From a virus (taxonomy: Duplodnaviria > Heunggongvirae > Uroviricota > Caudoviricetes): DNA of 64,000 bases. The notes below the pieces were generated by a model. The model saw only the letters and a list, made by a program, of their open reading frames with translations. It was not told the origin of the DNA and did no database searches. Shown piece by piece: positions 1,805-44,530 of this stretch. Within the stretch, counting starts at the first letter, position 1, and every line of letters begins with the position of its first letter. The stretch lies in the IMG/VR virus record IMGVR_UViG_3300028591_000077. One strand, given 5' to 3'. A program made the position numbers and the translations under genes.

Positions 1805-1807
1805 ATT

Positions 1808-4141: not shown

Positions 4142-4153
4142 GGAGAAGATAAC

Positions 4154-6094: not shown

Positions 6095-6173
6095 AAACCA
6101 ACTTTTTATTTACAAAGTAATGTTATAATGATATAATATATATAGAGTTAAGAAAGAAAGGATATTAGAAATT

Positions 6174-6449
6174 ATGAACTTAACAAAAATTAATGGATGT
6201 TATTCAAAAGAATTAAGAGAGAATTGTTATAACATCAAACTTCTCGTCAAAGATAGAAATACTTCAGTCAAGACAATGAAACAATGGATTAATAATATCA
6301 TTGAGCCAGCTTTTATTGAGGCAAAAGCCAAAGCTAGATTTAGAACCAATCTATCTAATTGTCAAACAAAAGAAGAGATTGACCAATTATGTCAAGATGT
6401 CGTTCTTCATGGAATGTATTACACACCAAAGAAAAGACAAGTTCGATAA
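6174..6449 (+). CDS. hypothetical protein (91 aa)
   Basis: ORF after tttacaaa...gatataat promoter. Confidence 0.4.
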   Translation: MNLTKINGCYSKELRENCYNIKLLVKDRNTSVKTMKQWINNIIEPAFIEAKAKARFRTNLSNCQTKEEIDQLCQDVVLHGMYYTPKKRQVR

Positions 6450-6629
6450 GTCTTGAATAACTTGAGAGTTCGTAAGAACTCTTTTTTATTTACATTTCTC
6501 ACAGGACATGTTATCATGAGATCAGGGAGTACGGAAGCTTCGGAAAAAACCACTAAAGAAGTGGATAAGCCGAAGCCGGATGGTACCCCCCACGCCGAAT
6601 GGTTCTGAAAACTTTTTATAAAAAAACGT

Positions 6630-6665
6630 TTACAAAGTTCTAATATCTTGGTATAATATAAATGA
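6630..6665 (+). promoter_or_regulatory. sigma70-like early promoter TTTACA-N17-TATAAT (representative of about 15 in the first 12 kb)
   Basis: tttacaaagttctaatatcttggtataatat; same architecture before genes at 944, 1637, 2252, 4740, 6174, 7530, 9204, 11400. Confidence 0.55.
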
Positions 6666-6686
6666 AGATAAGAGAGGTAATTAAAA

Positions 6687-7037
6687 ATGAACGAAAACGA
6701 AAAACAATTGGTAAAACAATTCTTCGAACTTAAAGCCAAACAAATAATCTGCAAAGTATGGTTGATGATTAATCAGAAACCTGGATACACCAATGATGAA
6801 GTTGGGTTGATGATGAAGGTAATGGAAGTTCAATCCAAACTCGAAACAGTCGAATCGAACATCTTGGACTTACTCAAAGCAAACGAAACCTTCTTCATGA
6901 ATTCGGACTTAGAAGAGTTATCGAAGCAACAAGAGTTCAAAGTCTCGTTCGACAAACAAAAAGAATACTCAAAAGAATTGTTAGGTTACGAAACTACAAT
7001 CGAAGACTTGATTGAAAAACTTCCAAGACGTGGTTAA
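6687..7037 (+). CDS. hypothetical protein (116 aa)
   Basis: ORF after tttacaaa-N17-tggtataat promoter and gagagg RBS. Confidence 0.45.
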   Translation: MNENEKQLVKQFFELKAKQIICKVWLMINQKPGYTNDEVGLMMKVMEVQSKLETVESNILDLLKANETFFMNSDLEELSKQQEFKVSFDKQKEYSKELLGYETTIEDLIEKLPRRG

Positions 7038-7075
7038 TTCCATGTCTTTTTTATTTATGAAGTTCCGCACATAGG

Positions 7076-7109
7076 TCATGATGAATCTGGGAGATCGGAT
7101 TCATCATGA
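7076..7109. repeat. 12-bp perfect inverted repeat tcatgatgaatc / gattcatcatga (hairpin)
   Basis: seen directly; sits at the start of intergenic island 7040-7450. Confidence 0.6.
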
Positions 7110-7289
7110 TTTTTCACTAAATAGTGGATAAAGCTTTTTGGGATGGCCCCCCTCGGATTAGCATCAGGAGTATCTTGCAAAAAAGTATTTACAATTCCAA
7201 GAGAATATGTTACCATGAGGTTGGGAAAGAAATTGGGGATCGCCGAAGAATCAAATAAACCACTAAATAGTAGAATTTAGCTGTCATCC

Positions 7290-7312
7290 GTACGATTCGG
7301 CGGTACGATTCG
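7290..7312. repeat. tandem direct repeat GTACGATTCG x2 (a third copy at 333-342)
   Basis: seen directly. Confidence 0.55.
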
Positions 7313-7529
7313 ACCTGTTGGTAAGACATAATTAGGACGATTTGACCTATGCAGTATCCTGCGGGGATCCCGATGCGCCTAGAAGAACGACTATTTAGTA
7401 GAATTAGTGGTTTAAGAATCCGGATGTGGATCGCCCCAGACTATGTGGTTAGAACTTTTATTAAATAATTGTTTACAAATATATATTTATATGGTATAAT
7501 ATTTATAGAAGATAAGGAGAGACTAAGTT

Positions 7530-7730
7530 ATGAAATGTTGTATCTGCGGAATAGAAATTAATGGTTATGGCAATAATCCTCAAGGTGCTGTTTGGAAGAC
7601 TCCAGAAGGTGAAATCTTTGAAGCAGAGTTTGATGCTGATGCCAGATGCTGTGACGAATGTAATACTAGGTTCGTTATTCCTGGTAGAATCTATAGAATG
7701 AACAAGGGGCACAAACATGATTCTAACTAA
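7530..7730 (+). CDS. Cys4 zinc-ribbon protein (66 aa)
   Basis: CxxC...CxxC pattern; promoter and RBS upstream. Confidence 0.45.
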   Translation: MKCCICGIEINGYGNNPQGAVWKTPEGEIFEAEFDADARCCDECNTRFVIPGRIYRMNKGHKHDSN

Positions 7731-8010
7731 GAAACATAAATGGTTCCTCTTTGATAATAACTATGTCACTGCCAAAGTCTTGGACGCCGCTTATTTAGGT
7801 GCTTGGCAAGACTACTTCATCAACAACTTCAGATGGGAGTTAAGCGAGAATAAAGATGCCTATGGTTTCTATAGACTATATCTTAAGGACAAGAAGACCG
7901 ACGATATAGAATATACTATTGGAATTAATTGGCAAGGTGATGACTTCCACAAGATGCTAACTTATATGCAAGACCCTAATAGTCCTAAACTAACTGCACA
8001 AAGGAGATAA
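7717..8010 (+). CDS. hypothetical protein (97 aa)
   Basis: ORF overlapping previous. Confidence 0.45.
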   Translation: MILTKKHKWFLFDNNYVTAKVLDAAYLGAWQDYFINNFRWELSENKDAYGFYRLYLKDKKTDDIEYTIGINWQGDDFHKMLTYMQDPNSPKLTAQRR

Positions 8011-8015
8011 AGAAT

Positions 8016-8306
8016 ATGAAATACAAAGTAACTACTTCGTATCTAATCGGAGCCGGAGACATGAGTCACGACGACGAGTGGATATTCGACACCAGAGAAG
8101 AAGCTCAAGCGTTCGTAGACAAATTCCATAAGGCGTTTCCAGAAGAGACTAAGACTATGGATGACCCATACATCTACACAAGCAAATGGAAACCTGAGAT
8201 AGAAGAAATCAACGATACTCGTGCCGACCCATACGTTTGGTTGGACAAACAAATAAAAGAAAAAGAAGAGCGTGAAAGACGCCATAAAGAAAGGTGGGGC
8301 TACTAA
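8016..8306 (+). CDS. hypothetical acidic protein (96 aa)
   Basis: ORF with RBS aggagat. Confidence 0.45.
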   Translation: MKYKVTTSYLIGAGDMSHDDEWIFDTREEAQAFVDKFHKAFPEETKTMDDPYIYTSKWKPEIEEINDTRADPYVWLDKQIKEKEERERRHKERWGY

Positions 8307-8307
8307 T

Positions 8308-8679
8308 ATGAAAATGACCGCGATGTTAAATGGATTAACCATAAAGAATCCTAACTATTACGAGAAGAGAGACAACGCCGACGTATTGGTTTTGTCTGAT
8401 GGAACCGAAATCACTTTCGACGGAGACGAGAACTCCGGACCTAACGACTGCTATAACTACGCCGACTGGTCTGCATTAGAAGACACTGGATTCTTCGAGG
8501 ATAAAACTATCACTGCAGAAACCTTGAAGTTAGAATCAGTGGAACCTTACGGCTTCAGAATCAACGGCTACTTCGTTCCTTGCTATTCCTGTCAGAACGG
8601 TTGGTATACTTCTACCTTGACCATCACTGCAAAGAAAGACGGTAAGGTAATCGCCACCATCGACTGCGAAGGAGAATAA
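8308..8679 (+). CDS. hypothetical protein (123 aa)
   Basis: ATG after RBS aaggtgggg; start trimmed from track ORF 8272. Confidence 0.45.
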   Translation: MKMTAMLNGLTIKNPNYYEKRDNADVLVLSDGTEITFDGDENSGPNDCYNYADWSALEDTGFFEDKTITAETLKLESVEPYGFRINGYFVPCYSCQNGWYTSTLTITAKKDGKVIATIDCEGE

Positions 8680-8683
8680 TAGT

Positions 8684-9094
8684 ATGAGTGATTACGTTCA
8701 TAATAAAGCAGTGATGTATCCAATCGACTGCGCTAAGCTAGGAATCAAAGACGCATGGGACCTAGATGAAAAGATTCCAGAAGCATTAAAGAACAACTGG
8801 GATAAGAAGTATCCTTACTTCGAATTAGAAGCAATGGTTGATTATGCCGGTAACGGAGATTGTAATTACTACTTATCATTGGTATTGGACAGCACATACG
8901 GCAGAGAGTCTGGTGACTTCGGTAGGAATAGAACTTTAAGTCCAACCGAACAAGAAAAGTATAAGAAGATATTCGAACAAGTGATTCCTGATGTCGACCC
9001 TTCGAAGCTGAAGTATGTAGACTATTGCTATTACAACTGTTGTGAGAGCGAAGACTATTACGTAAAGGAAGACGAGTTCAATACGGAGATATAA
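8684..9094 (+). CDS. hypothetical protein (136 aa)
   Basis: ORF. Confidence 0.5.
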   Translation: MSDYVHNKAVMYPIDCAKLGIKDAWDLDEKIPEALKNNWDKKYPYFELEAMVDYAGNGDCNYYLSLVLDSTYGRESGDFGRNRTLSPTEQEKYKKIFEQVIPDVDPSKLKYVDYCYYNCCESEDYYVKEDEFNTEI

Positions 9095-9203
9095 ACGAAC
9101 TTAAATAATAATTAATATTAATGTTTACATTATGTGAAAAGTAATGTATAATAACAATAGAGTCGAGACAACCATACCTCGACTTTTATTGTGGAGAGAG
9201 AAT

Positions 9204-9647
9204 ATGGAACATCATCTGAACATTGTCAGGAAGCTCAAGACTGCGCTGCGGATAGCGAAAACCACTAGCAAGGTAAGCGATGTCCGCGAGTATCATCTTG
9301 GCGCCGTCATCTTCGACAAGCATAAGATTTACTGCTATGCCTGCAACACCGACAAAGAGATTCCGATGCAGAGATACTACAACAGGTTCAAAGCGCCTGA
9401 CGCCAATAAGTGGAGAAAGCATTCCGCCCACGCCGAGATGAACTGCATCCATAAACTACTACAGCAATACTACGACAAATTGCCGGACTACTCAAAGCTA
9501 TCGATATTGGTATACAGAGAACACCATGACGGAACGCTCGCCATGGCACGTCCCTGTAAGGCATGCTCTCAGGCGCTGAGGGATCTGGGATTCAGGCATG
9601 TCTACTATACTAGTGATAACGGCTTGTGCTACGAAGAATTCATCTGA
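9204..9647 (+). CDS. cytidine/dCMP deaminase-like zinc-binding protein
   Basis: HAE ... PCxxC zinc-binding motif pair (SAHAEMNCI ... ARPCKACSQA); GC about 50 percent; start set at RBS ggagagag + ATG. Confidence 0.5.
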   Translation: MEHHLNIVRKLKTALRIAKTTSKVSDVREYHLGAVIFDKHKIYCYACNTDKEIPMQRYYNRFKAPDANKWRKHSAHAEMNCIHKLLQQYYDKLPDYSKLSILVYREHHDGTLAMARPCKACSQALRDLGFRHVYYTSDNGLCYEEFI

Positions 9648-9664
9648 TAAGGAGAACATTGAAA

Positions 9665-9835
9665 ATGACATTCGAGGGTAACTACAAAATCTTCATCCAA
9701 GGCGACGACGATAAATACGACGTCTGCGTCCGCATGCCGGAGAACGGTATGATAGCGAGATTCGACTGCGTATACGCGGCCGACAAGTATGCCAAAGAGC
9801 ACGGCATAGTATCAGGGTATATAGTAAAGAAGTAA
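9665..9835 (+). CDS. small hypothetical protein (56 aa)
   Basis: RBS aaggagaa + ATG; GC-rich. Confidence 0.4.
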   Translation: MTFEGNYKIFIQGDDDKYDVCVRMPENGMIARFDCVYAADKYAKEHGIVSGYIVKK

Positions 9836-9857
9836 TATAATAAGTATACATAGGGCC

Positions 9858-9884
9858 TGGCGACAGGTCCTTTTTTCATATACG
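9858..9884 (+). terminator. rho-independent terminator
   Basis: gggcctggcgacaggtcc followed by T6. Confidence 0.55.
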
Positions 9885-10114
9885 TCAGGCCAGGATACTG
9901 GATCCGGGGCGTCTGTACGGGCTATAAAAGCCACTACTGGAATAGTGAAAATTTGCATTGAATTTTCGGCGGGGGCCCCTAAATTTTTCACACTTGCTGT
10001 GCGCGAGAAATTTGCCTTTCGATTTTTCCACGCGCGCACATACGCGTATATAAAGAGAGTAGCAAAAAGAGTAGTAATTTAAAAAATTTTATCGTATAAT
10101 ATAAAAAGAGGTAT

Positions 10115-10633
10115 ATGTATATGAACAAGACTTTAACGAACGCATCGCAACTTAATATCGACCTATCCGCCTTCCATGAGCCCGACCGCAAGTGGAAGCA
10201 GTATTATTATGAGGATATTGAACATAATCTATTGTTCCTCATTCCTTCTTATATGGCCTATGGTCCTATAGTCGTGGACCTTGACTGGGCTAAGACTGCC
10301 AGGTTTACTACCGGAGACAGTGCTATCCATATGTTTAAGGACTATGCTTGGAACATGACTTCTAATGTTCGTAGAACTAGCTATGTCAAGACGACTGTTA
10401 CTGATAGAAGCGTTAAGTGCGGAAGGAAGACTATCATTCTTGGTTTATTGGTGATGGACAAACTATATAATGAGCCTGATTCTATTGATAAGCTCGCCGT
10501 CAATTATCTTAATGGCAATACGCTTGATAATAGGAAAGTCAATCTATCTTATGGCGTCTTAAAGGAGAATAATGATAGTAAGTATTCTTCTGAGGTTCCT
10601 GCTGTCAATTATCCTTGTAAGATTTGGTGGTAA
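10115..10633 (+). CDS. hypothetical protein (172 aa)
   Basis: ORF after cgtataatat promoter. Confidence 0.5.
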   Translation: MYMNKTLTNASQLNIDLSAFHEPDRKWKQYYYEDIEHNLLFLIPSYMAYGPIVVDLDWAKTARFTTGDSAIHMFKDYAWNMTSNVRRTSYVKTTVTDRSVKCGRKTIILGLLVMDKLYNEPDSIDKLAVNYLNGNTLDNRKVNLSYGVLKENNDSKYSSEVPAVNYPCKIWW

Positions 10634-10699
10634 AAATATTAAAAAATTTCTATATTACTTTATATAGGATTGTATAATATATTAGACAGGAGAATATTT

Positions 10700-11347
10700 A
10701 TGTGTAAGACAGTTAAACAAAGTAAAAATGAATTAGTTATTATCGGTGAGATTGTTCATATCCGATTAGTAAATACTGGGCATTATACAAAGGCTACAAA
10801 GTCTACATTCTATAATTTACATGCCGACTACTATACTTGGTATGAATCACCTGACAGATATGCTTATGCTACCGTTAATGGCGAGACTATTAAATTACAC
10901 GAATATATCAAAGGTAAAAGACCTGGATTAATGGTAGACCATAAAGATAGAGATAGACTTAATAATACGGATGAAAATCTTAGAGTCTGTTTACCAGCAG
11001 AAAATGCTCGCAATACTAGCTTAGCAAGAAATAATAAGCTTGGTGTTAAAGGTATTAAGCAAGAGAAAGATGGCAAGTATACAATCCACTTATGGCCGGA
11101 TTCAGATGGTCGTTATATTGGTAGAACGGCAGACTTAATTGTAGCTCAATTAGTTTACAATGTTGCAAGTAAATGGTATTATGGTGATTTTGCTTATCAA
11201 CACGAAATTGCTGAGAGAGATATCACACAAGCGAGACTTAAAGATACTAGCACATTATTAGAACACTTTAAAGAAAAAGAAGAAAAACGCAATAGAGAAG
11301 TTCCTCACGTATTAGGTTCATTCTATGTTGCACAAGAAGCTATTTAA
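10700..11347 (+). CDS. HNH homing-endonuclease-like protein
   Basis: HEYIKGKRPGLMVDHKDRDRLNNTDENLRVCLPAENARN matches the HNH (H-N-N) core. Confidence 0.6.
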   Translation: MCKTVKQSKNELVIIGEIVHIRLVNTGHYTKATKSTFYNLHADYYTWYESPDRYAYATVNGETIKLHEYIKGKRPGLMVDHKDRDRLNNTDENLRVCLPAENARNTSLARNNKLGVKGIKQEKDGKYTIHLWPDSDGRYIGRTADLIVAQLVYNVASKWYYGDFAYQHEIAERDITQARLKDTSTLLEHFKEKEEKRNREVPHVLGSFYVAQEAI

Positions 11348-11399
11348 TAAGTAAAAAAATTTAAAAAAACTATTTACATTTAGAGAAATCTATTGTATA

Positions 11400-12295
11400 A
11401 TAATTATGTAGCTTGTAGAAGAACCCTATAAGAGAATATAAGAATACAATTATCGACGGATAATATGACTTAAAAGGTATTATAGGGACAGGTCTTGAAG
11501 TTATTGTAAGACGACGGCATCTAATAAGTCGACCAATGTTAGTTGAACAGTCTGAATGATGGAGTCAATTCGAATTATACGGCCTACAACGCTATACATG
11601 CCAAGTAAGTTATTGAGTTACCCAATGCACAAAGCGAAGGGTATTAAATGGCAATCGCTACCGACGTCGCAAGACCCAGGCAACAAACAGAGCTTAATAA
11701 CCCGTTCCTCAAAGCCAATTCAAAATGGAAAACGTTAGATAAACACTGACTTATTTGAGTTTCTGGCGGATTTCTGACAGTGAAAAAATAATTGGTTTTG
11801 AGGACCGGAAAAGCGGGTTCGACGCCCGTCGTAACGTCGTACGGCGTTATATGTAGTTCAGGTGTAGGTAGAACACCGGTGGCAAGTTCGCGAGGAGTTT
11901 GGCTAAGCATAACCCCGACGACATATCAGGTAGCGAAGTACAAGTGGCAAGGTGAGAGAGCCGATCTGATGTGCAATAACCTTCTTAGGTTATCTAAGCA
12001 TATTGTCAATCAGTATTCTTAGACAACCTGCAGAAGCTAAAAACCACGTTAAAAACCATAAGATAATCGGTTAAGTGGAGATGGAACCGATTGTGAGGAA
12101 TCAGGCGCAGACGACAAATCCCGAAGACACTGCGTGATCAAATGGGCGGAAGAATGGAGTAGCTAACCATTCCAAAATATGTTAAGTATCTCAGGAGTAA
12201 CTAACCTGAGTGGTAGAGGTGTGATGACTTCAGTCATCTCCAAATATAAAGAGTCTAGAAATGGGCTCTTTTTTCTTATTTTTATTGTATTATAT
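11400..12295 (+). ncRNA. candidate large structured non-coding RNA (about 0.9 kb, family undetermined)
   Basis: tttaca-N17-tgtataat promoter at 11376-11400; no credible ORF on either strand for about 900 nt; GC above flanks; many local hairpins; T-run terminator near 12265-12290. Confidence 0.35.
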
Positions 12296-12560: not shown

Positions 12561-13643
12561 GTGACGCTAATGAAGAATCTAGTTAAGACTGATTTCGATA
12601 CAACAGTAGAAGAACTTAATAGCTTAAATGAGCAGTATGCTGATACTGCTGATTTTAATGTTCACATTAATTTAAAAACTCCGTCTACGCAAGAGATAAA
12701 GAAAGCACAAGATGATTTTAAGAACAACGCTAATAATCTTATATTAGACTATCCTAATTTTCATCTTGGCTATGATTTAATGATGTTTGAAGCATTATTT
12801 AATTTTTATCTTAATGACCAAACAAATGCCAATAATAGTGCTTGGGCCGATGATCATGCAAGACAAATTATGAATGCTATGTTTGATGACAACGGACGCT
12901 GAAAAGGCAGAGGCTCTTATAATTACATAAAAAATATTATTGTTCCATTAGGCAATAAAGAATTAGAAAGAGCTATGAAGCTTGCTTGGGGCTTGATGTA
13001 TACCTCTGATAGTGCAAAGATAGCACATAAAGTTATTAAGATGAATGGTAGTACAATAACTACTACTTCTAATGTTGCTAATAATGTAACAAAAGACAGA
13101 GCTATTGCTTTTGTAAAAGAAAAATTATCAAAAGGGATTTTTATGTGGACAGGCGGTTTTAATGAAAATTCTTCGTTTGAAAATGCAACATTTGAAGAAA
13201 AGTTCTTAACATTCCTTTGCATGCAATTAAGCGTAGAACAAGAAATCAAAACCATACCAATGGCTATTAGAGGTGTAGCAGTAACAGATGAACAAAGAAC
13301 CTTATTCATAAGAGGTATGCAAACCATAAGAGATATTATTTATAGTAAGAACTATGATAGAGTCTTAGATATTTATACAACTATTGCAGAGGTGCACGGC
13401 GAGCTAGAAAAGGGTGGAGCATATTACACTGATTGGTTCCAAGTATTCTATAATAATAAGAAGATATTTGTTGACTTTGAAGTTATGGAAATGGGCTTAG
13501 CATTATTTATGAAGAAAATTGGTTGGCATTTAACGTATGATAAAATAGTAGACATTATCGGAATAGATAATCTTGAAAAACATTTTAAATATGGTGATAG
13601 CTTCTTATGTATGCTTAATAGAATAAAAGTAATAGAGGATTAG
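12561..13643 (+). CDS. hypothetical protein (360 aa if TGA at 12900 is read as Trp); N-terminus paralogous to next gene
   Basis: track ORFs 12561..12902 and 12975..13643 are in frame, separated only by TGA; fused length matches the 347-aa paralog. Confidence 0.45.
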
Positions 13644-15469: not shown

Positions 15470-15970
15470 ATGGAATATACTTATGGTATTGAAAAAGTCT
15501 ATAATATCGTCAAAAGAGTAAGAAGAAAGCTTATATTAAATGACAAGGTTATTGATTATCTTTATAATAAACTTTCTGATAAAAATAAAAGATATGTCTT
15601 AATGACAGGCTATTCTGAGTATAAAGAAATTACAAAAGATGTCATCAAAGATTTATTGCAGAAAGCCGAACAAGATGGCAGATATTGGAACAAAGATGTT
15701 TTTGCAGAATTAGCAGATTATCCGGAATATGATGGCGTGCCATTCGAGGTTACTCATGCAAGTCCATATGACCATCGTTGGCCAGGCGACTACGATGAAG
15801 ATGCTTATGATGATTGGAAAGTAGATGCATGCAGTCTTAGTGACTTATTATATGATGACACTTGAAATACAGAGCCTGTCTTTGCAGAACATCCAGAAAA
15901 CTTCGATTTTGAGGATGAAGAAGTTGAAATAGAACAAGAAAAACTAACAGATACACGTTATGGCTGGTAA
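15470..15970 (+). CDS. hypothetical protein (166 aa with TGA at 15863 read as Trp)
   Basis: ORF continues through TGA to TAA at 15968. Confidence 0.45.
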
Positions 15971-23352: not shown

Positions 23353-26300
23353 ATGGCAAAAGACAGATTAGTTGGCAACTTAAACATGGATATGGTTGAA
23401 GTTGATTATCAAGGTGTAGAAACTGAAACAGCAGATACTATAGTTGATAACGACAATAGAACAATTGCAACTGAAGTTAAGAAAGTTCGTTTTCCATTAG
23501 TTTTTGCAATTAATGGCGAAAACATAAAATATGATGGAAGTGAAACGATTTTAATAAGCTATGACCATTTTGATTCAGACTTAGAAGCAGAAATTGCACA
23601 GCGTAAAGTTGCAGTTGGTAATGAAGAAGCAAGGGCAAGAGCTCGTGAAGATGCTCTTGAATCAGATTCCGCAAGCTTTTTAGATATTGAACAAAATGAA
23701 CAAACAGGTATTGTTACAATCAAGCTATTGAATGTTCGTAATGAGCTTTTGGACACTAAAACATTAGATTTAGAAACTGAAAAGATTATTAGAACAATTG
23801 CTCTTAACTATCCTGCAAAGAAATTAATATTTACATCCGTAGATGGAACAGCTATTGAATGCGATATTAAGGACATGATTAATGACTTTGAAGCAAAACT
23901 AGCTAATTTAGATACTTCTCTGACAAATATGTTGGCTACTGAGAGTTCTAGAGCTGTCAGCGAAGAAGGAAGAATAGAAGCTAAAGCAGAAGATTTAGTG
24001 GCTACAGAAAAAAATAGAGCTGAGGATGCAGAATCACAGCTTGCTGCTGATTTGACTGCTCATAAGGCTGACAAAGCCAATCCACACGGAGTTACTAAAG
24101 CTCAAGTTGGTTTGGGAAATGCAGATAATACAAGCGATATAGACAAACCCGTATCAACGGCGCAGCAAGCAGCTTTAGATTTAAAATTAGATAAAGACAA
24201 TTTTGGCTGGGCCATTGCAGATCATACCTATAATCCTGAATTTGGTTATACTGCCGGAGATACAGTTTATTATGTAGATGTAGATAATCCACATCGTGGC
24301 TATTTGTATGTAGCTAAGGAAGATATCGCAGCACCTGCTGGTGATTTCGATTACACTAAATGGAATACCACAACATTAGAAAGATTGATATGGTATAAGC
24401 AAGATAAAATCGACGACAATAATAAGCTTTTTGCTGATTATGTCGACGATTCTAATGCAGTTCATAAATTCGCAACAAGTGAGCAATTAACACAAATCGC
24501 CACAAATAAAACGGATATAAGCAATCATAAGGCAGATAATGCAAATCCGCACAATGTAACTAAAGCACAAGTGGGTTTGGGCGATGTTGTCAATACTGGT
24601 GATAGCGCAACTCCTGTAGAAAACGGAACAACAAAATTTACTACAGGTGGTGCTTATACATTAAAAACTGATTTAGAGGCAAGCATTTCTGATGAAGCAT
24701 CTGCAAGATCTCAAGCCGATACAAACCTACAAAACCAAATAAATACGATTGAAGCTAGAAGCGACGTAATCGACGTAGTTGCTTGCTATGATAACCACGG
24801 TGAGCAAAAATCTGATATTGTTCACTATGATATCACTTCCGGCAAAATTTCAAATAATGATGTTGTTAAGGTTTTAATCGACGAAACACATGATGATACT
24901 GTTGCTTATTATCGTTGAGTAGCTACAAGCGGTGTTGGTGTTTGGAATTATGTAGGTTCTGTTGAAGCTTATTATACAAAAGCTGAAACTGATGTCATTG
25001 AATTAGGATTACAAAATCAAATTGATAATGATATTGAGATTGTTCCTTATCAAACAACAACTACCTTAACAGATGCACAAGTTGAAAAAGCTAAAAACGG
25101 CAAGCTAGCAGTCTATTACAGTGGAGTTTTATTACGCCCAAGCAGTATTGCAGATAATTTTATTATTTTTGCTGCAACCAACTGAACTGCAACAGCTAAT
25201 GCTGATAATTTTATTACAAAAGAAAATTATAAACATACATATTGTTTCTTGTATTTAAGTACCAAAAAACTTGGTGATTATAATTCTTCTATAAAAGATG
25301 GTATTTCAGATAATACTAATAATGTTTTTAATAATACCACTATACCGGATACTTCTGGAAAACAAATAGTCCGTGCTCAAAACCTTCGCAGAACCCAAGA
25401 CATGATCTGCCAAGATTATTATAGCCCATCATCGACTTATTCAGTTGGAGACGTGGTAATCTACGAAAACAAATTATATGAATGTTCTACTGATATTTCT
25501 GTCGCAGAAGCTTGGGATTCTACACACTGGACTCAGATAAACTTTGTTGACTATGCTAAATATAGAACTCCGGATATTGGCTATTTTGAAATTACTAGCT
25601 ATACTGGAACTTTGACTGATGAACAATGGGCAGAATTGCATAAAAGTATCTGTTTTGTTCGTGTTATAACTACAAGTTCAGATACAAGAAATGGTATATA
25701 TGTATATAATCCTCTTAGTTCAGCAGGTTCAACAAGTAATCGAATCTATCTTCAACAAATGTTGTATATTGGCGCTAATACTATGCAGTTTGAGATTAGA
25801 TCAGGTTATATTGCTGTTACAATTGCAACAAAGGCATATGAGGTCAGTGGGCAGGATTATATTACTTATAATAAAAGCTATATTGATTATTTACTCAGTA
25901 ATAAGCTAGAAACTACTAAACTCGCTGCAAAATATTCTACAAATAATACTTACGCTGTCGGTGACGTCGTTATTTACCAAAATGATTTATATGAATGCAA
26001 TACGACAATTAGCACTGCTGAGGCCTGGACCGCGGCTCATTGGACAAAGACAAGCTTAAGCACTTTAATTGAAAAATATAAATTACGTGTTATAGAGCTG
26101 GCAAGTGATGCCGGTGATACATTTTCTGCAGATTTATTAGCAAAAATAAAAGAAAATCCAGTTATCTTTGTATTACATAATCCAGATGGTCGTTATTTTA
26201 GACTAGAATATCAAGATACTGATTTATTGTATTATTCTGTTTGAGTTTGTAGTGGTACTGGAAATGGCAGAGGTAGAGTTTATAAATATGGTTATACTGT

Positions 26301-28956
26301 TAATAAAACTACTGGTCAAGTCATACAACACGATATTGATGTTCTAAATGGTGGTAATTATCAAGGAAGCCTATATTGAAACCAAAATATACCGTCAGGC
26401 CACTCGACTGTAGAATTACAGAATATTTATGATTATTCAAAAGGGGTATATTATAAACCCTTAACGATAGACTTATTTTATCCAGCTTATAATTCATCAT
26501 ATACATATTCAATTGGCGATATTGTTTCTTATAAAGGAAAATTCTATATTTGTATTTCTGCTATTTCTACTGCAGAAGCTTGGACGGCCGCTCACTGGGC
26601 TGAGACAAATCCAGGCCAGCAAGTTATAGAATTAACAGCTGTAAGTGGAACACTTACTGATGTCGAATATGCTAAAGTAGCTAGTAAAAATGCACTTATT
26701 TTGTATAATAATTTTTACTATTTAAAATATAAAGAAACAAATGATAATTATAGATTTTCTGGCGTTTGTTTTGAATGGGATTGAGCTAATGGCAGACACG
26801 AAAAACCAGATATATTTATTAATAAAACTACTAAAGCATATAGCGTTTCAACTTATACTATAAAGAATATAACTGCAAATCCAACCTTAGCAGGAACAGA
26901 ATCTAACTTAAATAGCCTACAGGTTGGCAATACAAAATATGCATTGCCTTTTGACAGCAAGCAAGATATATTAGTTTCAGGAACTAATATCAAAACCATT
27001 AATAATACTTCTTTACTCGGCAGTGGTGATTTAGCTATCAATAAATCATCTGTAGGATTAGGTAATGTAGATAATACTAGTGATGCTGATAAACCTATAT
27101 CTACTGCTACTCAAACTGCTTTAGACTCTAAACAAGATATATTAGTTTCAGGTACAAATATTAAAACAATTAATAACACATCTATTTTAGGTTCAGGAGA
27201 TATTTCTGTTCAACCAGTACTGGTTGGTTCAGGAACAGGGCAAAACATTAAGACAATTAATAGTAATTCTATCTTAGGAGATGGAAATATTAATTTACAA
27301 GTACCTTTAGTCGGTTCTGGTACAGGACAAAATATTAAAACTATCAATAGTTCTAGTATTTTAGGAACTGGTGACCTTTCTTTACAACCAACACTTGTTA
27401 GTTCTGGAACAGGTCAAAACATTAAAACAATTAACAGCACATCAGTACTTGGCTCTGGAAATATTTCTGTTCAACCTGTATTAGTCAGCGGAACAAATAT
27501 TAAAACAATTAATAATGAATCATTACTGGGCAGTGGCAATATCAATACTAGTGCTATGCAAGAAATAACTTGATCAGAGCTAAAGAATAAGAAAGATAAT
27601 TCTCTATTAGTTCCTGGTCAACTTTATAGAATAACCGACTATATTTGTACCACTTTTCAAGAAAATACTACAACTGCTAGTAGACAATTTGATATCATAG
27701 TAAGAGCTTTAAGCAATAATGCGTTATCAGAAGAGGCATTTGCTGCACATTGCGCCGTTGAATCAGGAGCAGGAAGTGATTTTATGGCAGCTAAAATGCA
27801 AGCTTGGAAAATATGATATTGTATCGATAATGATGACACAAGATTTAAATGGGCTAAGGGAGGCACGGCTTATATGACACTTAGCTGTCGTTCTTTGCCT
27901 ACGGCTGCAACTTTTTACAGGGATTCGGCAAAAGATGCTAATGGATATTATGCATGGACAGGCACTTCTTACAGCAGTTCTCAAGCATATACAAAAACTT
28001 TTTACACTAATACATTAAATATAAGTACAACTGTCCAGCTATATGAGGATTCTGCTGGTACTATCTATACTGATTATAGCATCAGCGAAGCAGTTTCTAC
28101 TGTAACTTCGGCGTCATTTAGAGCCGCTGGAAGTTCTTTCCCGTCTGTATGGTTTTATAGAGATTATGCTAAGGATGCCAATGGTTATTATGCATGGAGC
28201 GGTAGTAATGGAAGTAGCTACTCCGGAACAAAATATACATCTACTTTAAGCATTTCAACTTCAATGACGCTTTATAGGGATACTAATGGTACAGCAGAAA
28301 CGAACTATAGTATATCCGCAGTTTCTAATTTTGAACCTGTTGTTTCATTTTGATCCAGTGCTTCTGGCTGGCCGAACACACAATTTACAAGAGACTCTAG
28401 CAAAGACACTAATGGTTTGATTGCTTGGAGCGGAACCAATGAGAGTTACTCGTACTCGGGTACGTTATACACTAAAACATTTGAAATAGCACCATCAACG
28501 CAAGTATACTCTGACAGTGGCACAGCAATTGCTCATAGCCAATACTCTATATCTGGTATATCCATAAAGGTAGGCAGAGGTGTTATATATAGAATGATCG
28601 ATGAATTTGGCAATGACGTTCCGTATGATTTTAAAAACATATTATTTAGTTTTAGCAGTCCGCAAATTTCTGATTTATTTACATTTAACTCAAGCAGCGG
28701 TAGTACAGATATTAGTTTAGATGGTTCTTGTCATGAAAATAAAATAGAAAAATATTGTGACGATTCTGGTAAACAAGAATTAAACTTCACAGTATTTAGC
28801 CCAACTAGTAGCTCTTATAAAATGTGTAAAAATAAAATAGGTTTGAATAACAAGAACAATGTCATTCGTCATAATTTTAAATGCAACCTTATTGGAGCTA
28901 ATTATCAAGGTAATATAATTACATCAGAATATAGTAATCATACTTATGATAACTAA
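23353..28956 (+). CDS. tail fibre / receptor-binding protein, 1,867 aa, with 8 in-frame TGA (Trp) codons
   Basis: five track ORFs (23353, 25249, 26944, 27874, 28417) share one frame and are separated only by TGA; tail-fibre motif H.VTKAQVGLGNxDNTSDxDKP twice; three CBM5/12-like YxVGDVVxYxNxLYECxTxISxAEAWxxxHW modules; 27-aa repeat array; three about 80-aa YRDxAKDANGYYAW[ST]G repeats. Confidence 0.75.
26944..27573 (+). repeat. in-gene tandem array of 27-aa (81-nt) repeats [QP][PV]LV.SGTGQNIKTINS.S.LGSG within the tail fibre
   Basis: at least 7 consecutive units readable in the translation. Confidence 0.65.
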
Positions 28957-33195: not shown

Positions 33196-33435
33196 ATGAA
33201 CGGATTGTATAGCTATCACGACTATGAAGAGGCCTATTTTCATGGACGAGTATATGATTGTAAGAAGATAGGCTTATATCTCTTGGGCAAGCTTAAGGAT
33301 GATAGATCAAAGAAATTATATAAACAACTTGAATCTATTGAGTATGCCTGAAATTTGCCGCACAGAAAATTGGATAAGCTTGCAGAAACATTATTAAATG
33401 TTAAAATCTGACTTATGGTAAATCAAAATTATTAG
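33196..33435 (+). CDS. hypothetical protein (79 aa, two TGA-Trp codons)
   Basis: ORF missed by track because of TGA; TTGGCTAAATTAT motif upstream; terminator 33431-33458 downstream. Confidence 0.4.
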
Positions 33436-40175: not shown

Positions 40176-40231
40176 CAATGCCTTTTTATTATTTGCTAAA
40201 TTATTTAGAAATATTTTGGCAGGATAATCAT

Positions 40232-41881
40232 ATGGCAACAACTAAAAAACAATTTATAATCCCTAAAAGAAGCCATGAAAAACCAATTGACTTTGAGGTT
40301 GTAACTGGAACAGTTCTTTCCGATGATATTGGTCTTTTTGCTTATAATTCAAATTCAGCTTGGAGTAAATGGGTAATTTCAGACATTAAAAGCGGTTTAC
40401 AATTACAATGTAAATTTAATACATTAGCAGATTGTAAAGCTTTCGTAGAAACCATGCCTCAAGAGCTTGTTGATAAGATTAAAGCTCGTCAGCAAGATCA
40501 AGACTACTTAGAAATGTGTAATAAAATTAAGCAGCAAGCTTTAGAACTTTCTGTTTCTAATAAATACTATGAGGCTTTTAATGGAGATTTTAATGACCTT
40601 TATAGATTAAATGAAGAAGCAATTGGTCTATTCGAATCATTACATTTTAATACATTAGTTGAATCAGTTAAAATTGACTTTGCAAATGAAGTTGCAGAAC
40701 TTATTAAAAAGTATCCAGAGAGATTTAGCAATATTGATGCTGAAAATTTAGATAAACCTAAATATATTTCAATTGACTATTTAGATGGCTGCACAGATAT
40801 TACTTTTGATACCGGATTAGGCAATGATGACCCAATTGCAGACTTGACAGGCAATTCTACAAACCTTCTTGCTTTATCTGAGTATGATGATTTAATGAGA
40901 GAAGTTTTTAAAGGTAAAATTGATAAGTGATTAAAGAAGCATAATTTATCTCATGAGGATATCTGTTGGCTTAAATATGATCCTGATATTGACCAAGTAT
41001 TCTTAGAATTTAATACAGAACCAATTCATGATGAAAAAGAAGAAAGCTTAACGGAATCAAAAGAAGATTGAATTAACTTTGAGACCTGGGCTGGAAAAGA
41101 TAATGTTGAATTATTTAAGAAATTACAACCAAGATTACAAGGTCAAGAGCGTGACATGTATTATTGGATGGAACAAGGCTTAGATGCTCTTGAAGCAAGA
41201 TTGGCGGAATTACAAGCAACTCCTACAAAGGCTGAAAAGAATGCCGAAGCCGCTGGAAGTGCTGAATTAGTATACACGGATAATAATTGGTTGGTTTATC
41301 ATATTGATTCAGTAGAAGCCGCAAGAAAATATGGTAAAGGCACAAAATGGTGCATTTCAGCTGAACATGAGACAGCAGACGGTCAAACAGCTGAATCACA
41401 TTGGGAAAGTTATGTTTTGCGCGGTGCCGATAGTTTCTTTATTGTTATTAATAGACGAAACAGTAGAGATAAATATTGCGTAGTCCATTATGTAGATGGC
41501 ACAAAAGAGTTCTGGTCTGCGAATGATACTGTCATTAGTGAAATTCCTAATGGCCCTGCATTTGAGCCGGTTATGCTTACTGACACAATTCCAAATGTTA
41601 TTATAAAATCAGCTTATATCATTGCAGAAGCATTAGTTGACCGTATGGCTTCAAAGCTTGAATTATTTAGAAAGCCAAAAGGTTTTAGATTCTTTTTAAC
41701 TTCAAGATATGGTAGCGATACAAATGATAAAGTATTAAGATTATTTGCAAATATTGCTGCAGGTTTTAGACAATTTGGCACATCAGATGAGCTATTTAAC
41801 TTATATAGCTCTAAAGAATCCTATCGTGAAGCTATTGTAGAAGAAGTAGCAAAGCAAGTTCAAATTTTGGCAGGTAAATAA
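40232..41881 (+). CDS. hypothetical protein (549 aa, two TGA-Trp codons)
   Basis: track ORFs 40178.. and 41156.. are in frame, joined through TGA at 40928 and 41068; start set after TTGCTAAATTAT motif. Confidence 0.5.
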
Positions 41882-41884: not shown

Positions 41885-42616
41885 ATGGATGAAAAGCTAG
41901 ATTTAAAATTAAGCAATTTGTTTTATAATTGTGCTCATACTATTAAGTATAAAACCGCAGGGCATGATGTTAATTATGCTTTTGTAGAAGAGCATGATAT
42001 TCTTTATATTTATTTTCAAGGCAGCGCCTCTGTAACCGACTGGATTAGAAACTTCTTATTTGGAAAACGCCCATACAAAGATATGGCTATCCCTTATAAG
42101 GTTCATAGAGGTTTTTTAGAAGCTTGAAAAGAAGTAGAAGATATTGTCATTGAAAAAGTTCAAGAAAAGAAAAAGAAGCGCTTCTATAATTCTTTTGAAG
42201 ATTCTTATTACTTTAAACAAGTTTATAAATGGAAAAAGATTATAGTAGTTGGATATTCTCACGGCGGTGCTCTTGCTGCATTCTGTCATGAGTGCGTTTG
42301 GTTCTGGCGTCCAGACCTTAGAGACGATGGTTTAGTTGGCTACGGCTTTGAGGCCCCAAGAATGTATGCTGAATATAGAGTTAAACCAGAATTAGGAAAA
42401 AGATGGGCAAATTTCACCGTTATTAGAACAAATAACGATTTAGTCACTCATTGCCCACCGGTGATCTTTAAATATCGTCATGTTGGTAAAATATTAAAAG
42501 TTAAGGGTGATGCCTCTTTAGTTAAGAAATGGTATATACCAAAATGTATTAAATCACATTTTCCAGAAGTCGTCTATGATGCTTTGGTAAAAATGGAGAA
42601 TGAAAAAAGAGCTTAA
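41885..42616 (+). CDS. class-3 (fungal-type) lipase-like alpha/beta hydrolase
   Basis: GYSHGGALA nucleophile elbow; ORFs 41885 and 42362 joined through TGA 42125. Confidence 0.5.
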
Positions 42617-42630
42617 TTAAGCTCTTTTTT
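42603..42630. terminator. bidirectional terminator
   Basis: perfect palindrome aaaaagagcttaattaagctcttttttt between convergent genes. Confidence 0.7.
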
Positions 42631-44530
42631 AATAGTCTTTCTCAGTCATGTTATTAATGACTTGTTTTACGTTATCTTGCAGACGTTTATTTTCTGGCTC
42701 AAACTGTAATGCTTTATAAGCGCAGCCAAGGCTTTCTAATTTTTGTCCATTATAGTAGTAAGCTAGACATAATAAATCATAGGGTTCATATGACCAAGAA
42801 ATATCGCGTTCTAGCCAAGTATAATGTCGATAACTTTTAGCAAGGCCCTGTTTGATTATATCGATGGCCATTTGATACTGCTTAAGCTCAAGAAAAGTTT
42901 TTGCTAAGTTAAGATACAACTCACGGTATGTAGGCTCAATTTCAATACCTTTAAAATAACTTGCGATTGCTTTGTCATATTGCTTAAGGTCTTGGTAATC
43001 ATCACCAATGAATAAATAACAACTTGCTCTTTCTAATGAGGCTATTTCTTTGTCATAAACAGTCAATACCTTATTTAGCTTTTCGATAGACTTTTCTAAG
43101 AAGCCTCTATAGCGATATTCATGTGCCAAATAAATTAATCCATACATATCTTCAGGATAATCTTTTTCCCTAAGCTCTAATAAACCTAAATAAGAACCAC
43201 GAGATTTTGTCTTATCTGGATAATGCTGTAATGTTATATCATTGAATAAATATAATGACTTTTCGGCTGGATAATTTTCTGTATGTTCTGTTTTATGCCA
43301 TAATAACTCGTGGACAGGGTAACGCCATTCCCAGTTTTTATCATGGATTTTATTGTAGTTGAATATACGACCTGGCTCACCGTTGTCTAAATGCGACCAA
43401 ACATATTTATAGGTTGCTCTTGTATGAACTCCTGGAATCCATTTTTCACGAAGTGGCTTTGCCCAACCTGCGTCTAATAATTCATCTAAATCGGTGCAAA
43501 TATAAATTTCTGTATCTTCTGGCACTAACTTTAGAGATTCGTTTCTTGCGACATCGAATCTCCAAGGCGTAATTACTTTTTGGGCAACTCTAAATTGAGC
43601 TGGATACTGTTTTTGATATTCTAATAATTTTTCATAAGTGCCATCTGTTGAGCCAGTATCTAATACACAAATATAATTTGCTTCTGACATAGATTTTACC
43701 CAAGCGTCTACGAATTTTAATTCATTTTTACAAATTGCATAAACTGCTATTTTCTTTTCTGCTGACATTTTATATAACTCCCATTGTTTATCTATTCAAG
43801 CGCCATTCCATCCTAATTTTCTACTTACTTCTGGCGGAGTGGCTTGGTATATTTGTTTAGCTAGCTGCATATATTTTCAAGCTTCAGTATAGTTGTGCAA
43901 AAGATAGTTTTGATATGCTAGCATAATATATATTCCGCCGCTATCTTCTGGATATAGCTCACAGCGTTTTTCAAGTAGCTGATTATATCATTGTCACTTT
44001 GTTGAATTATTGTCTTCATAATGCTCAACATATATTGGAATATTTGGACAATCTACATTTATACCGGTATTTATATCACCTAATGTTTCATGAACTGGAT
44101 AATACCATTTTGTTTTTCCGTTATTTCTGAAAATACGAAGCATTGGCACATATTGGCCGACATAATTCTTAGTAACATCTCTGCGATAAAAATTAAAAAT
44201 ATTAATTTTTGGGTCAAGATTCATTAATGCTTGTCGCCAATTTACCATGATACGCTCATCTAAATCCACACAAATTATAATATCAGTATCCGCAGGCACG
44301 AGCTCAATTGCTTTATTACGTGCTTCATCAAAATAAAAAGGCGTAAATATCTGTTGTTTAATAAAAAACTTATTTGGAGATTTTTGATTTAATTCCTGTA
44401 ATTTTTCTCATGTGCCATCTGTAGATCCAGTATCTAAAACAGTGATATAGTCGGCGTCTGAAAAATTAGCCACTCATTCATTTATGTTGGCAATTTCATC
44501 TTTACAAATAGCATTAATGCAAATTTTCAT
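42629..44530 (-). CDS. tandem-duplicated family-2 glycosyltransferase with C-terminal TPR repeats (about 630 aa; possible frameshift at extreme 5' end)
   Basis: two VLDTGSTDGT[YW]EKL GT2 cores (second W is TGA); no TAA/TAG between track ORFs 43994..44299 and 42629..43768; ATG at 44530 is out of frame by 1 nt in an A4T4 run. Confidence 0.55.

What the first reader, a model, noticed from the sequence alone, without database searches (positions are those of the whole stretch)
23353..28956. TGA is read as tryptophan: 1,867-aa tail fibre interrupted by eight in-frame TGA codons
Five six-frame ORFs (23353, 25249, 26944, 27874, 28417) lie in one frame and are separated only by TGA; no TAA/TAG intervenes and the translation reads sensibly across every junction. 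Independent support: in the duplicated glycosyltransferase (42629-44530, minus strand) the paralogous blocks align TGA opposite aromatic residues (VLDTGSTDGT-Y-EKL vs VLDTGSTDGT-TGA-EKL; FVDAWV vs INE-TGA-V), which points to Trp rather than Gly (code 25). More than 20 other in-frame TGA codons occur in the window (12900, 15863, 33115, 33238, 33409, 40928, 41068, 42125, 56044, 60300, 60372 and others). This fits genetic code 4 (Mollicutes) or a TGA-recoded phage.
Basis: seen in the sequence. Interest (0 to 1): 0.7.

Follow-up and report, generated by a model that had tools for sequence, protein, structure and literature searches.

The report
Phage reads TGA stop as tryptophan

Summary
Window 23353-28956 is one reading frame with eight in-frame TGA codons, no TAA or TAG inside, and a TAA stop at the end.

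TGA here encodes tryptophan:
- In orthologous genes of related phage contigs, TGA and TGG exchange at 13 well-aligned positions. Three of these are inside the tail fibre. No other codon exchanges with TGA at such positions.
- Distant homologues carry W or Y opposite four TGA sites that could be tested.
- Pfam domains run straight through TGA positions.

The usage is sparse and clustered. About 23 TGA codons stand against 275 TGG codons, and they sit in 9 of 89 genes. The promoter-rich early region has none. There, TGA still closes three genes, two of them backed up by TAA within two codons.

This fits a TGA-recoded phage infecting a standard-code host, as described by Borges et al., better than a Mollicutes-type code 4 genome.

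The window comes from a 131-kb metagenome contig of a jumbo-phage lineage whose relatives are 200-237 kb. No tRNA with a UCA anticodon was found in the 82 kb I could read. The phage's tRNA array runs off the end of that sequence.

Verdict: a new member of a known kind, of moderate-to-low interest.

The parts
23353..28956 (+). Tail-fibre gene of 1,867 codons, read through eight TGA codons and ending in TAA. It has three CBM_5_12 carbohydrate-binding modules, tail-fibre collar motifs, GxNIKTINxxSxLGxG repeats and a widespread C-terminal domain.
24916..24918 (+). In-frame TGA, fibre codon 522
   Evidence: Well-aligned homologues have VxYYRW(V/I): W in three, Y in one
25183..25185 (+). In-frame TGA, fibre codon 611
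   Evidence: It aligns with TGG in L143, but in a poorly conserved stretch.
26242..26244 (+). In-frame TGA, fibre codon 964
   Evidence: It lies in a variable cassette and no reliable homologue column was found.
26377..26379 (+). In-frame TGA, fibre codon 1009
   Evidence: It lies in a variable cassette and no reliable homologue column was found.
26782..26784 (+). In-frame TGA, fibre codon 1144
   Evidence: The TGA is conserved in the strain-variant fibre L143, with 21/21 flanking residues identical. The table-11 gene call for that fibre (P0354) stops exactly here.
27571..27573 (+). In-frame TGA, fibre codon 1407
   Evidence: The TGA is conserved in L143. The 150 best distant homologues have Y (91) or W (44).
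27814..27816 (+). In-frame TGA, fibre codon 1488, in the motif AWKIWY
   Evidence: L143 has TGG here, and conversely has TGA where the window has TGG at 27805 and 27850. Distant homologues have W in 82 and K in 45.
28351..28353 (+). In-frame TGA, fibre codon 1667
   Evidence: No homologous column was available.
42629..44530 (-). Duplicated GT2 glycosyltransferase with TPR repeats, 633 codons. It has six TGA codons (44476, 44410, 43996, 43990, 43879, 43798), all in the N-terminal copy.
40178..41881 (+). Gene of unknown function, 567 codons, with TGA at 40928 and 41069
41885..42616 (+). Lipase_3 gene with TGA at 42125. L001 has TGG there, and L001 has TGA where the window has TGG at 42041.
12570..13643 (+). 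Gene with TGA at 12900; 246 further codons follow in frame
15470..15970 (+). Gene with TGA at 15863; the TGA is conserved in L143
32854..33165 (+). Gene with TGA at 33115. L143 has TGG there, and L143 has TGA where the window has TGG at 33031.
33196..33435 (+). Small gene with probable sense TGA codons at 33349 and 33409. The frame ends at a TAG that abuts a terminator hairpin.
55831..56535 (+). P-loop kinase-like gene with TGA at 56044 (sense) and 56488 (probable sense)
60171..60629 (+). DUF5662 gene with TGA at 60300 and 60372. Both are TGG in the strains L016 and L018.
2219..2221 (+). TGA that ends early gene 1808-2221. It is also the TG of an extended -10 promoter (TGATATAATATTTATAGAG), which is followed by a ribosome-binding site and ATG 2252.
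9645..9650 (+). TGA-TAA tandem at the end of the dCMP deaminase gene. It terminates under either code.
599..11411 (+). Early region with clustered promoter motifs (TGNTATAAT and TATAATATTTATAGAG) and no sense TGA

Best explanation
The window is part of an uncultured jumbo phage, on the 131-kb contig ENA ERZ27256846 k141_3714765; related IMG/VR contigs are 201-237 kb. In this phage UGA has been reassigned to tryptophan in a subset of genes. The tail fibre is one 1,867-residue protein whose eight UGA codons are decoded as Trp. The most likely mechanism is the one proposed for TGA-recoded phages of standard-code hosts. Early genes avoid in-frame TGA, so they can be translated by the unmodified host apparatus. 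Later, a UGA-reading tRNA charged by TrpRS, possibly helped by a shift in release-factor balance, lets the TGA-containing genes be translated. Those genes are the tail fibre, the glycosyltransferase, the lipase and a few others. What is shown: TGA is a sense codon and it stands for Trp. Also shown: the usage is sparse, clustered, and absent from the promoter-rich early region. What is inferred: the host uses the standard code, the switch is temporal, and a suppressor tRNA exists. That tRNA was not found in the 82 kb I could read.
For: One frame with eight TGA codons and no TAA or TAG. TGA and TGG exchange at 13 aligned orthologous positions in five genes. These are the glycosyltransferase (44239, 43996, 43810, 43702) and the lipase (42041, 42125). 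They also include DUF5662 (60300, 60372), the tail fibre (27805, 27814, 27850) and gene 32854 (33031, 33115). No other codon is paired with TGA in well-aligned regions. In distant homologues, glycosyltransferase residue 19 is W in 67 of 84, and residue 41 is Y in 39, W in 8 and F in 7. Fibre site 27571 is Y in 91 and W in 44; 27814 is W in 82 of 150. The query for that search excluded the TGA sites. Site 24916 is W in three well-aligned homologues. Pfam domains GT2, Lipase_3, DUF5662 and AAA_18 span TGA positions. Usage is 22-23 TGA against 275 TGG, in 8-9 of 89 genes (permutation P < 1e-4). The fibre plus glycosyltransferase have 14 of 47 Trp codons as TGA, against 8 of 250 elsewhere (Fisher 1e-7). 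The early region has 0 TGA among 80 Trp codons, against 23 of 255 elsewhere (P = 0.002). Its promoter motifs are enriched: 14 matches against 4 expected. TGA closes only 3 of 41 early genes, and two of those have TAA within 0-2 codons. Window genes end in TAA (68) or TAG (20). High-GC relatives (L008, L013) use TGA as an ordinary stop, while low-GC relatives (L012, L015, L001) also have in-frame TGA. All of this matches the published description of TGA-recoded phages. They show TGA depleted as a stop and TGA accumulating in structural genes. Suppressor tRNAs were detectable in only 35% of such genomes (bioRxiv 10.1101/2021.08.26.457843).
Against: No tRNA with a UCA anticodon was found in the window, L003 or L004 (ARAGORN, Rfam and my own anticodon-arm scan). 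No RF1 or TrpRS gene appeared among the proteins scanned. The host is unknown, so a code-4 host is not excluded. Not all TGA-containing genes are obviously late. The P-loop kinase and DUF5662 genes lie among RNA-repair genes, and the fibre sits between a thymidine kinase gene and a nucleoside deoxyribosyltransferase gene. Timing was inferred from promoter motifs only. Four of the eight fibre TGA sites lie in variable cassettes and could not be checked against homologues.
Confidence: 0.75

Rival explanations
1. The phage infects a host that already uses genetic code 4 (Mycoplasmatales or Entomoplasmatales type, UGA = Trp, no RF2) and simply shares its host's code. No phage-borne recoding machinery or temporal switch is involved.
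For: TGA = Trp is established. No suppressor tRNA, RF1 or TrpRS was found in the accessible 82 kb. The DNA is AT-rich, 35% GC. All three apparent TGA stops could also be read as sense, giving W plus 0-2 residues or a fusion of genes 1808 and 2252, which happen to be in frame.
Against: TGA is only about 7% of Trp codons and is confined to 9 of 89 genes. From background knowledge, code-4 Mollicutes use TGA as the major Trp codon. There is no sense TGA in 41 early genes with 80 TGG codons. Gene 1808-2221 ends at a TGA followed at once by a recurrent promoter motif, a ribosome-binding site and an ATG. Two TGA ends are backed up by TAA, which only makes sense if TGA sometimes terminates. Close relatives in the same phage family use TGA as an ordinary stop. 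From background knowledge, a phage of more than 130 kb (relatives over 200 kb) with at least 29 tRNAs is unlike known Mollicutes phages. The nearest cultured-phage homologues are from Bacillus, Staphylococcus, Enterococcus and Lactobacillus phages.
Confidence: 0.15
2. TGA encodes glycine (code 25, as in Absconditabacteria and Gracilibacteria and their phages) or another amino acid such as Cys or Sec.
For: One poorly aligned glycosyltransferase column (residue 179) has G in 16 of 84 homologues. TGA is one mutation away from GGA, TGT and TGC.
Against: All 13 orthologous exchanges are with TGG, and none is with GGN, TGY or CGA/AGA in well-aligned positions. Conserved columns show W, Y or F. Eight Sec codons in a tail fibre with no selenoprotein context is implausible, and no tRNA-Sec reached threshold.
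Confidence: 0.02
3. The TGA codons are real stops. The fibre and glycosyltransferase would then be decaying pseudogenes, or sets of separate small genes, or they would be made only by rare leaky readthrough.
For: Public gene calls made with table 11 split these genes into fragments. One internal fragment (27874) has an ATG preceded by GGAGG.
Against: There is no TAA, TAG or frameshift in 5.6 kb. Protein sequence is conserved downstream of the TGA codons between strains and relatives: 82% for the glycosyltransferase after TGA at codons 19 and 41, and mostly synonymous differences across DUF5662. TGA positions are conserved or swapped with TGG. Homologues are single long proteins across the junctions. 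Three of the four internal fragments start at TTG with no ribosome-binding site. Leaky readthrough of a few percent per site would give essentially no full-length product after eight sites (arithmetic).
Confidence: 0.02

Closest known systems
TGA-recoded (code 4) phages of standard-code gut and rumen bacteria: Agate, Jade and related clades (Borges et al., bioRxiv 10.1101/2021.08.26.457843, read)
   Same: Large uncultured phages from animal gut metagenomes. In-frame TGA aligns with Trp. TGA is nearly abandoned as a stop; a standard-code Agate relative has 2.7% TGA stops, and here 3 of 41 early-region genes end in TGA. TGA accumulates in tail and structural genes but not in early or replication genes. 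Close relatives use the standard code. A suppressor tRNA is often not detectable.
   Different: I could not place this phage in any named clade, because no terminase was available in the window. Recoding here is sparse: 7% of Trp codons, and coding density rises only from 82% to 87%. Some recoded genes are not structural or lysis genes. No suppressor tRNA, RF1 or TrpRS was seen in the 82 kb read.
Alternative genetic codes in jumbo phages (Anim Microbiome 2026, PMC13037316, read)
   Same: Jumbo phages from the rumen and gut with TAG or TGA recoding restricted to part of the genome. They carry large tRNA sets, and some tRNAs have unusual inserts.
   Different: That survey calls a genome recoded only if coding density rises by 10%. 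This window rises by about 5 points, so it would probably be missed.
Genetic code 4 of Mycoplasma, Spiroplasma and their phages
   Same: UGA is read as Trp.
   Different: From background knowledge, in those genomes UGA is the predominant Trp codon, used genome-wide, and never a stop. Here it is a minority codon, clustered, and TGA still closes a few early genes.
Genetic code 25 (Absconditabacteria and Gracilibacteria and their phages)
   Same: TGA is a sense codon.
   Different: There TGA encodes Gly. Here every informative comparison gives Trp or an aromatic residue.

Membership tests
TGA-to-Trp recoded phage (phage code 4) | In-frame TGA in intact, conserved protein-coding genes | tested here: met
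   Eight in the tail fibre, six in the glycosyltransferase, and nine or more elsewhere. Pfam domains span them.
TGA-to-Trp recoded phage (phage code 4) | TGA aligns with Trp in homologues | tested here: met
   There are 13 TGA/TGG exchanges between orthologues. W, Y or F stands opposite TGA in distant homologues.
TGA-to-Trp recoded phage (phage code 4) | TGA largely abandoned as a terminator | tested here: met
   Window genes end in TAA (68) or TAG (20). Early region L004 has 37 TAA, 1 TAG and 3 TGA.
TGA-to-Trp recoded phage (phage code 4) | Phage-encoded UGA suppressor tRNA (anticodon UCA) | tested here: inconclusive
   None was found in the window, L003 or L004. The tRNA array runs off the end of L003, and 49 kb of the contig could not be read. 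Published surveys find one in only 35-60% of such genomes.
TGA-to-Trp recoded phage (phage code 4) | Host uses the standard code | not testable with these tools
   The evidence is indirect only. The early region is TGA-free, some TGA stops have TAA back-ups, relatives use the standard code, and homologues come from phages of Bacillota.
TGA-to-Trp recoded phage (phage code 4) | Recoded codons concentrated in late (structural or lysis) genes | tested here: inconclusive
   Clustering is strong, and the tail fibre is the most recoded gene. Other recoded genes (kinase-like, DUF5662, lipase, glycosyltransferase) have no known timing.
Mollicutes-type code 4 genome | TGA is the main Trp codon, used throughout the genome | tested here: not met
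   23 TGA against 275 TGG. 80 of 89 genes have none.
Mollicutes-type code 4 genome | TGA never functions as a stop | tested here: inconclusive
   Three early genes end at TGA, one directly before a promoter, ribosome-binding site and ATG. Termination itself was not measured.
Code 25 (TGA = Gly) | TGA aligns with Gly in homologues | tested here: not met

The most novel reading that the evidence does not exclude
TGA may have two meanings within one phage genome. It would act as a working stop (with TAA back-ups) in early genes, and as Trp in about 9 later genes. That would make this phage an early intermediate of code change that density-based detection pipelines miss. The UGA decoder might not be a canonical tRNA gene. 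The phage encodes an unusually rich RNA-repair and tRNA-maturation set: two RNA ligases, a kinase/phosphatase, a Thg1-like enzyme, a CCA-adding enzyme and HAD 'Swiss-army-knife' domains. It also carries permuted tRNA-like genes in its tRNA array, so the decoder could be assembled or edited after transcription.
Probability: 0.07. Interest if true: 0.8.

Novelty: new member of a known kind. Interest (0 to 1): 0.3.

Why it matters
Annotation is the practical issue. With table 11 the tail fibre, the glycosyltransferase and seven other genes are split into fragments, and public gene calls for this contig are split in exactly this way. Host-range and function predictions for this phage lineage would therefore be wrong.

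The biological point is modest. This is a clear case of sparse recoding: 7% of Trp codons, with no sense TGA in the early region and TAA back-ups behind two of the three residual TGA stops. That pattern fits the published idea that loss of TGA as a stop precedes its return as a sense codon, and that recoding can gate non-early genes.

It also shows that pipelines requiring a 10% gain in coding density would probably overlook such genomes. It does not reveal a new principle.

Tried and rejected
**Search for the UGA decoder**
- ARAGORN on the window and 20 loci found no tRNA(UCA).
- Rfam at a permissive threshold found none either.
- My own scan for a TCA anticodon arm followed by a T-loop found nothing.
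- The three extra tRNA-like hits in L003 are Cys(GCA), a Tyr-like tRNA (GUA) and His(GUG).

**Attempts to read beyond the end of the tRNA array**
- An exact-pattern scan of IMG/VR found nothing, and the same pattern in JGI metagenomes found nothing.
- Look-ups of the neighbouring 651-residue protein and its relatives returned other contigs that were shorter or had no tRNAs.
- Two pattern scans for Trp-like tRNA(UCA) in IMG/VR failed. One gave 120 or more chance hits. The other gave 2 unrelated hits.

**Other dead ends**
- No close relative exists in GenBank phages.
- No relative of the fibre was found in IMG/VR by peptide patterns.
- Aligning the four internal fibre repeats, to see whether their TGA codons share a column, was not usable because the repeats are too diverged.
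- The DUF5662 paralogues were uninformative at the TGA columns.
- I first took the 'permuted tRNA halves' downstream of the window for split or intron-bearing tRNA genes. Weak Rfam YrlA hits and the predicted fold make Y-RNA-like RNAs the simpler reading.
- Several apparent in-frame TGA codons in my naive table-4 gene map were rejected as promoter, ribosome-binding-site or start-site artefacts: 599, 2219, 2240, 2685, 9135, 16586, 20980 and 20989.


Full report
**1. The observation**

Window 23353-28956 (+ strand) is a single reading frame of 1,867 codons. It starts at an ATG preceded by AGGAG and ends in TAA. It contains eight in-frame TGA codons (24916, 25183, 26242, 26377, 26782, 27571, 27814, 28351) and no TAA or TAG.

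Three of the four internal ones begin at TTG with no Shine-Dalgarno motif. From base composition I estimate the chance of a 5.6-kb frame free of TAA and TAG in 35% GC DNA at about e^-100.

**2. What the sequence is**

The window has 35% GC, almost all its genes lie on the + strand, and it has no tRNA gene and no Rfam match.

Pieces of the long protein match PHROG tail-fibre families. The whole protein has three CBM_5_12 modules.

The neighbouring genes point to a large phage:
- thymidine kinase, nucleoside deoxyribosyltransferase, dCMP deaminase and DNA ligase;
- two RNA ligases, one fused to a kinase and a phosphatase;
- a Thg1-like enzyme and a CCA-adding enzyme;
- HAD 'Swiss-army-knife' RNA-repair domains, PARG, NADAR, peptide deformylase and an SPFH protein.

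Exact-protein look-ups place the window at 31096-95095 of ENA contig ERZ27256846 k141_3714765, which is 131,032 bp. An array of at least 29 tRNA genes starts about 3 kb past the window end.

IMG/VR relatives, found through the 651-residue protein next to that array, are contigs of 201-237 kb. No close relative is in GenBank phages. The best protein matches (35-40% identity) are to phages of Alicyclobacillus, Bacillus and Staphylococcus. This is therefore an uncultured jumbo phage, probably of a Bacillota host. The host is an inference.

**3. TGA is a sense codon and means Trp**

(a) Orthologue comparisons, restricted to real genes. TGA pairs only with TGA or TGG in well-aligned regions.
- Glycosyltransferase against L001 and L002: window TGA / relative TGG at 43996; window TGG / relative TGA at 44239, 43810 and 43702. 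Four TGA codons are conserved.
- Lipase_3 gene: exchanges at 42125 and 42041.
- DUF5662 gene: 60300 and 60372 are TGG in two strains. Most of the 60-odd other codon differences are synonymous, so the whole frame is under purifying selection.
- Gene 32854: exchanges at 33115 and 33031.
- The tail fibre itself, against a strain-variant fibre on L143 (1,796 codons, five TGA). TGA is conserved at 26782 and 27571. There are reciprocal exchanges at 27805, 27814 and 27850. The motif AWK(I/L)WY uses TGG-TGA in one strain and TGA-TGG in the other.

That makes 13 exchange positions, with no TGA paired to any other codon in well-aligned regions.

(b) Distant homologues.
- With X placed at the TGA sites, glycosyltransferase residue 19 aligns with W in 67 of 84 homologues. 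Residue 41 aligns with Y in 39, W in 8 and F in 7.
- A library-wide HMMER search used only the 80 residues between TGA 27571 and 27814, so the query contained neither site. In the 150 best hits the flanking residues are Y in 91 and W in 44 on one side, and W in 82 and K in 45 on the other.
- Site 24916 aligns with W in three well-aligned homologues and Y in one.
- One homologue gene call ends exactly at the 26782 position, as expected for a table-11 call on a recoded relative.

(c) Pfam matches for GT2, Lipase_3, DUF5662 and AAA_18 run across TGA positions.

Four fibre TGA codons (25183, 26242, 26377, 28351) lie in variable cassettes. For these I have only the intact frame as evidence.

**4. 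Pattern of use**

I count 22-23 confident sense TGA codons against 275 TGG, about 7% of Trp codons, in 8-9 of 89 genes.
- The clustering is far from random: 8 genes observed against about 18 expected (permutation P < 1e-4).
- The fibre plus glycosyltransferase hold 14 of their 47 Trp codons as TGA, against 8 of 250 elsewhere (Fisher 1e-7).
- Coding density rises only from about 82% to 87% on switching from table 11 to table 4.

The first roughly 21 kb that I could read (L004 and window 1-12000) carries many small genes. These are preceded by an enriched promoter motif, TG-N-TATAAT followed by ATTTATAGAG: 14 matches against 4 expected, 11 of them between 905 and 11411. This region has no sense TGA among 80 Trp codons, against 23 of 255 in the rest (P = 0.002).

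In that region TGA closes three genes:
- one is followed directly by TAA (9645);
- one is followed by TAA after two codons;
- one (2219) is itself the TG of the next gene's extended -10 box, which is followed by a ribosome-binding site and an ATG.

Elsewhere genes end in TAA (68) or TAG (20).

Among relatives, the high-GC ones (L008, L013) use TGA as an ordinary stop. The low-GC ones (L001, L012, L015) also show in-frame TGA.

**5. Mechanism**

The data fit the published model for TGA-recoded phages of standard-code hosts (Borges et al.).
- First the lineage stops using TGA as a terminator.
- Then TGA reappears as a Trp codon in genes that need not be translated at once.
- A phage-supplied UGA-reading tRNA, charged by TrpRS, makes those genes translatable.

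I could not find that tRNA. Nothing with a UCA anticodon is present in the 82 kb I could read. The tRNA array is cut by the end of the retrievable sequence, and several attempts to extend it failed. Published surveys also detect suppressor tRNAs in only 35-60% of recoded genomes. The decoder, the host's code and the timing therefore remain inferences.

The code-4-host alternative is weakened by four things: the low and clustered use of TGA, the TGA-free early region, the TGA stops with TAA back-ups, and standard-code relatives. It is not excluded, and I give it about 0.15. Glycine, selenocysteine, pseudogene and leaky-readthrough readings are contradicted by the alignments.

**6. Comparison and novelty**

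This is the phenomenon described by Borges et al. and surveyed in jumbo phages (PMC13037316). From memory rather than from papers read here, it was also reported earlier for gut phages and crAss-like phages.

The phage meets the sequence-level criteria of a TGA-to-Trp recoded phage. The suppressor-tRNA and host-code criteria could not be settled. What is slightly unusual is how sparse the recoding is, and that residual TGA stops co-exist with sense TGA codons. That makes it look like an early stage of code change, and one that a 10% coding-density threshold would probably miss.

It is a new member of a known kind.

Noticed in passing
L003 16348-22229 (about 3-9 kb past the window end; contig record about 98,100-104,000): A dense array of at least 29 tRNA genes: 26 from ARAGORN plus Cys(GCA), His(GUG) and a second Tyr-like tRNA from Rfam. 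It runs to the end of the retrievable sequence. Trp, Ser, Lys and Asn tRNAs had not yet appeared.
   Followed up: partly
L003 21064-21649: A full-length ROOL RNA (Rfam RF03087, 210 bits) sits inside the phage tRNA array. This large ornate non-coding RNA was first found in cow rumen data and is known to lie near tRNAs and in prophages (PMC5737381).
   Followed up: partly
L003 18255-18345, 20230-20425, 20868-20965, 21950-22072: Repeated modules, each with a promoter-like TATAAT and a leader ending in CTTATTTC. A T-arm, an acceptor-stem hairpin and sometimes a D-arm follow in permuted order, and the module ends in TAATAGTT(A/G)GCC. Rfam gives weak YrlA (Y-RNA-like) hits, and the fold shows a closing stem with a tRNA-like multiloop. 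In one module an entire tRNA-Ile gene sits between the two acceptor strands. No Ro/TROVE protein was identified.
   Followed up: partly
window 35247-36197, 38025-38978, 48259-49683, 49696-50256, 55165-55809, 60683-62962: An unusually complete RNA-repair and tRNA-maturation set. It includes a Thg1-like 3'-5' polymerase, an RNA_ligase-family (PF09414) ligase and a CCA-adding enzyme. It also has two HAD_SAK_2 proteins and a kinase-phosphatase-Rnl1 fusion. PARG, NADAR, peptide deformylase and a YqeY-domain protein lie nearby.
   Followed up: partly
window 23353-28956 compared with L143 8001-13391: The tail fibre is mosaic between strains that are otherwise about 97% identical. The N-terminal 450 residues and residues of about 1200-1350 are 86-99% identical. 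The middle and the C-terminus are only 11-40% identical. This looks like cassette exchange for host range. The fibre also has a much lower GC skew (0.05-0.06) than the sequence just upstream (0.24-0.28).
   Followed up: partly
window 27052-27107: A 56-bp stretch in the GxNIKTIN repeat region is 94.6% identical to a gene of crAss-like phages cr4_1 and cr114_1 from human faeces. It was the only megablast match to GenBank phages.
   Followed up: no
window 42629-44530 (- strand): The only clearly real minus-strand gene is a tandemly duplicated GT2 glycosyltransferase with a TPR tail. All six of its TGA codons are in the N-terminal copy and none is in the C-terminal copy. The same is true in relative L001.
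   Followed up: partly
window 599-11411 (+ strand): An enriched, strand-specific motif, TG-N-TATAAT-ATTTATAGAG, lies upstream of many small genes: 14 matches against 4 expected, in 0 of 100 shuffles. It is probably the early promoter plus transcription-start region. The same 16-mer precedes a Y-RNA-like module in L003.
   Followed up: partly
window 12570-13643, 13648-14691; 30297-30890, 52064-52564, 60171-60629: There are paralogous gene families. Two adjacent genes of about 350 codons share an N-terminal MKNL(V/I)KT(D/E)FD motif. There are three DUF5662 genes.
   Followed up: no
L013 17486-17561: A relative that uses TGA as a stop (49% GC) carries a tRNA-like gene with a 6-nt anticodon loop, C-UCA-AC, which ARAGORN could not assign. 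It might be a UGA-reading tRNA in a genome that has not been recoded.
   Followed up: no
L003 13839-15794: A conserved 651-residue protein with no Pfam match lies directly upstream of the tRNA array. It has more than 500 homologues in metagenomes, many on contigs of over 200 kb, so it is a useful marker for this jumbo-phage group.
   Followed up: partly
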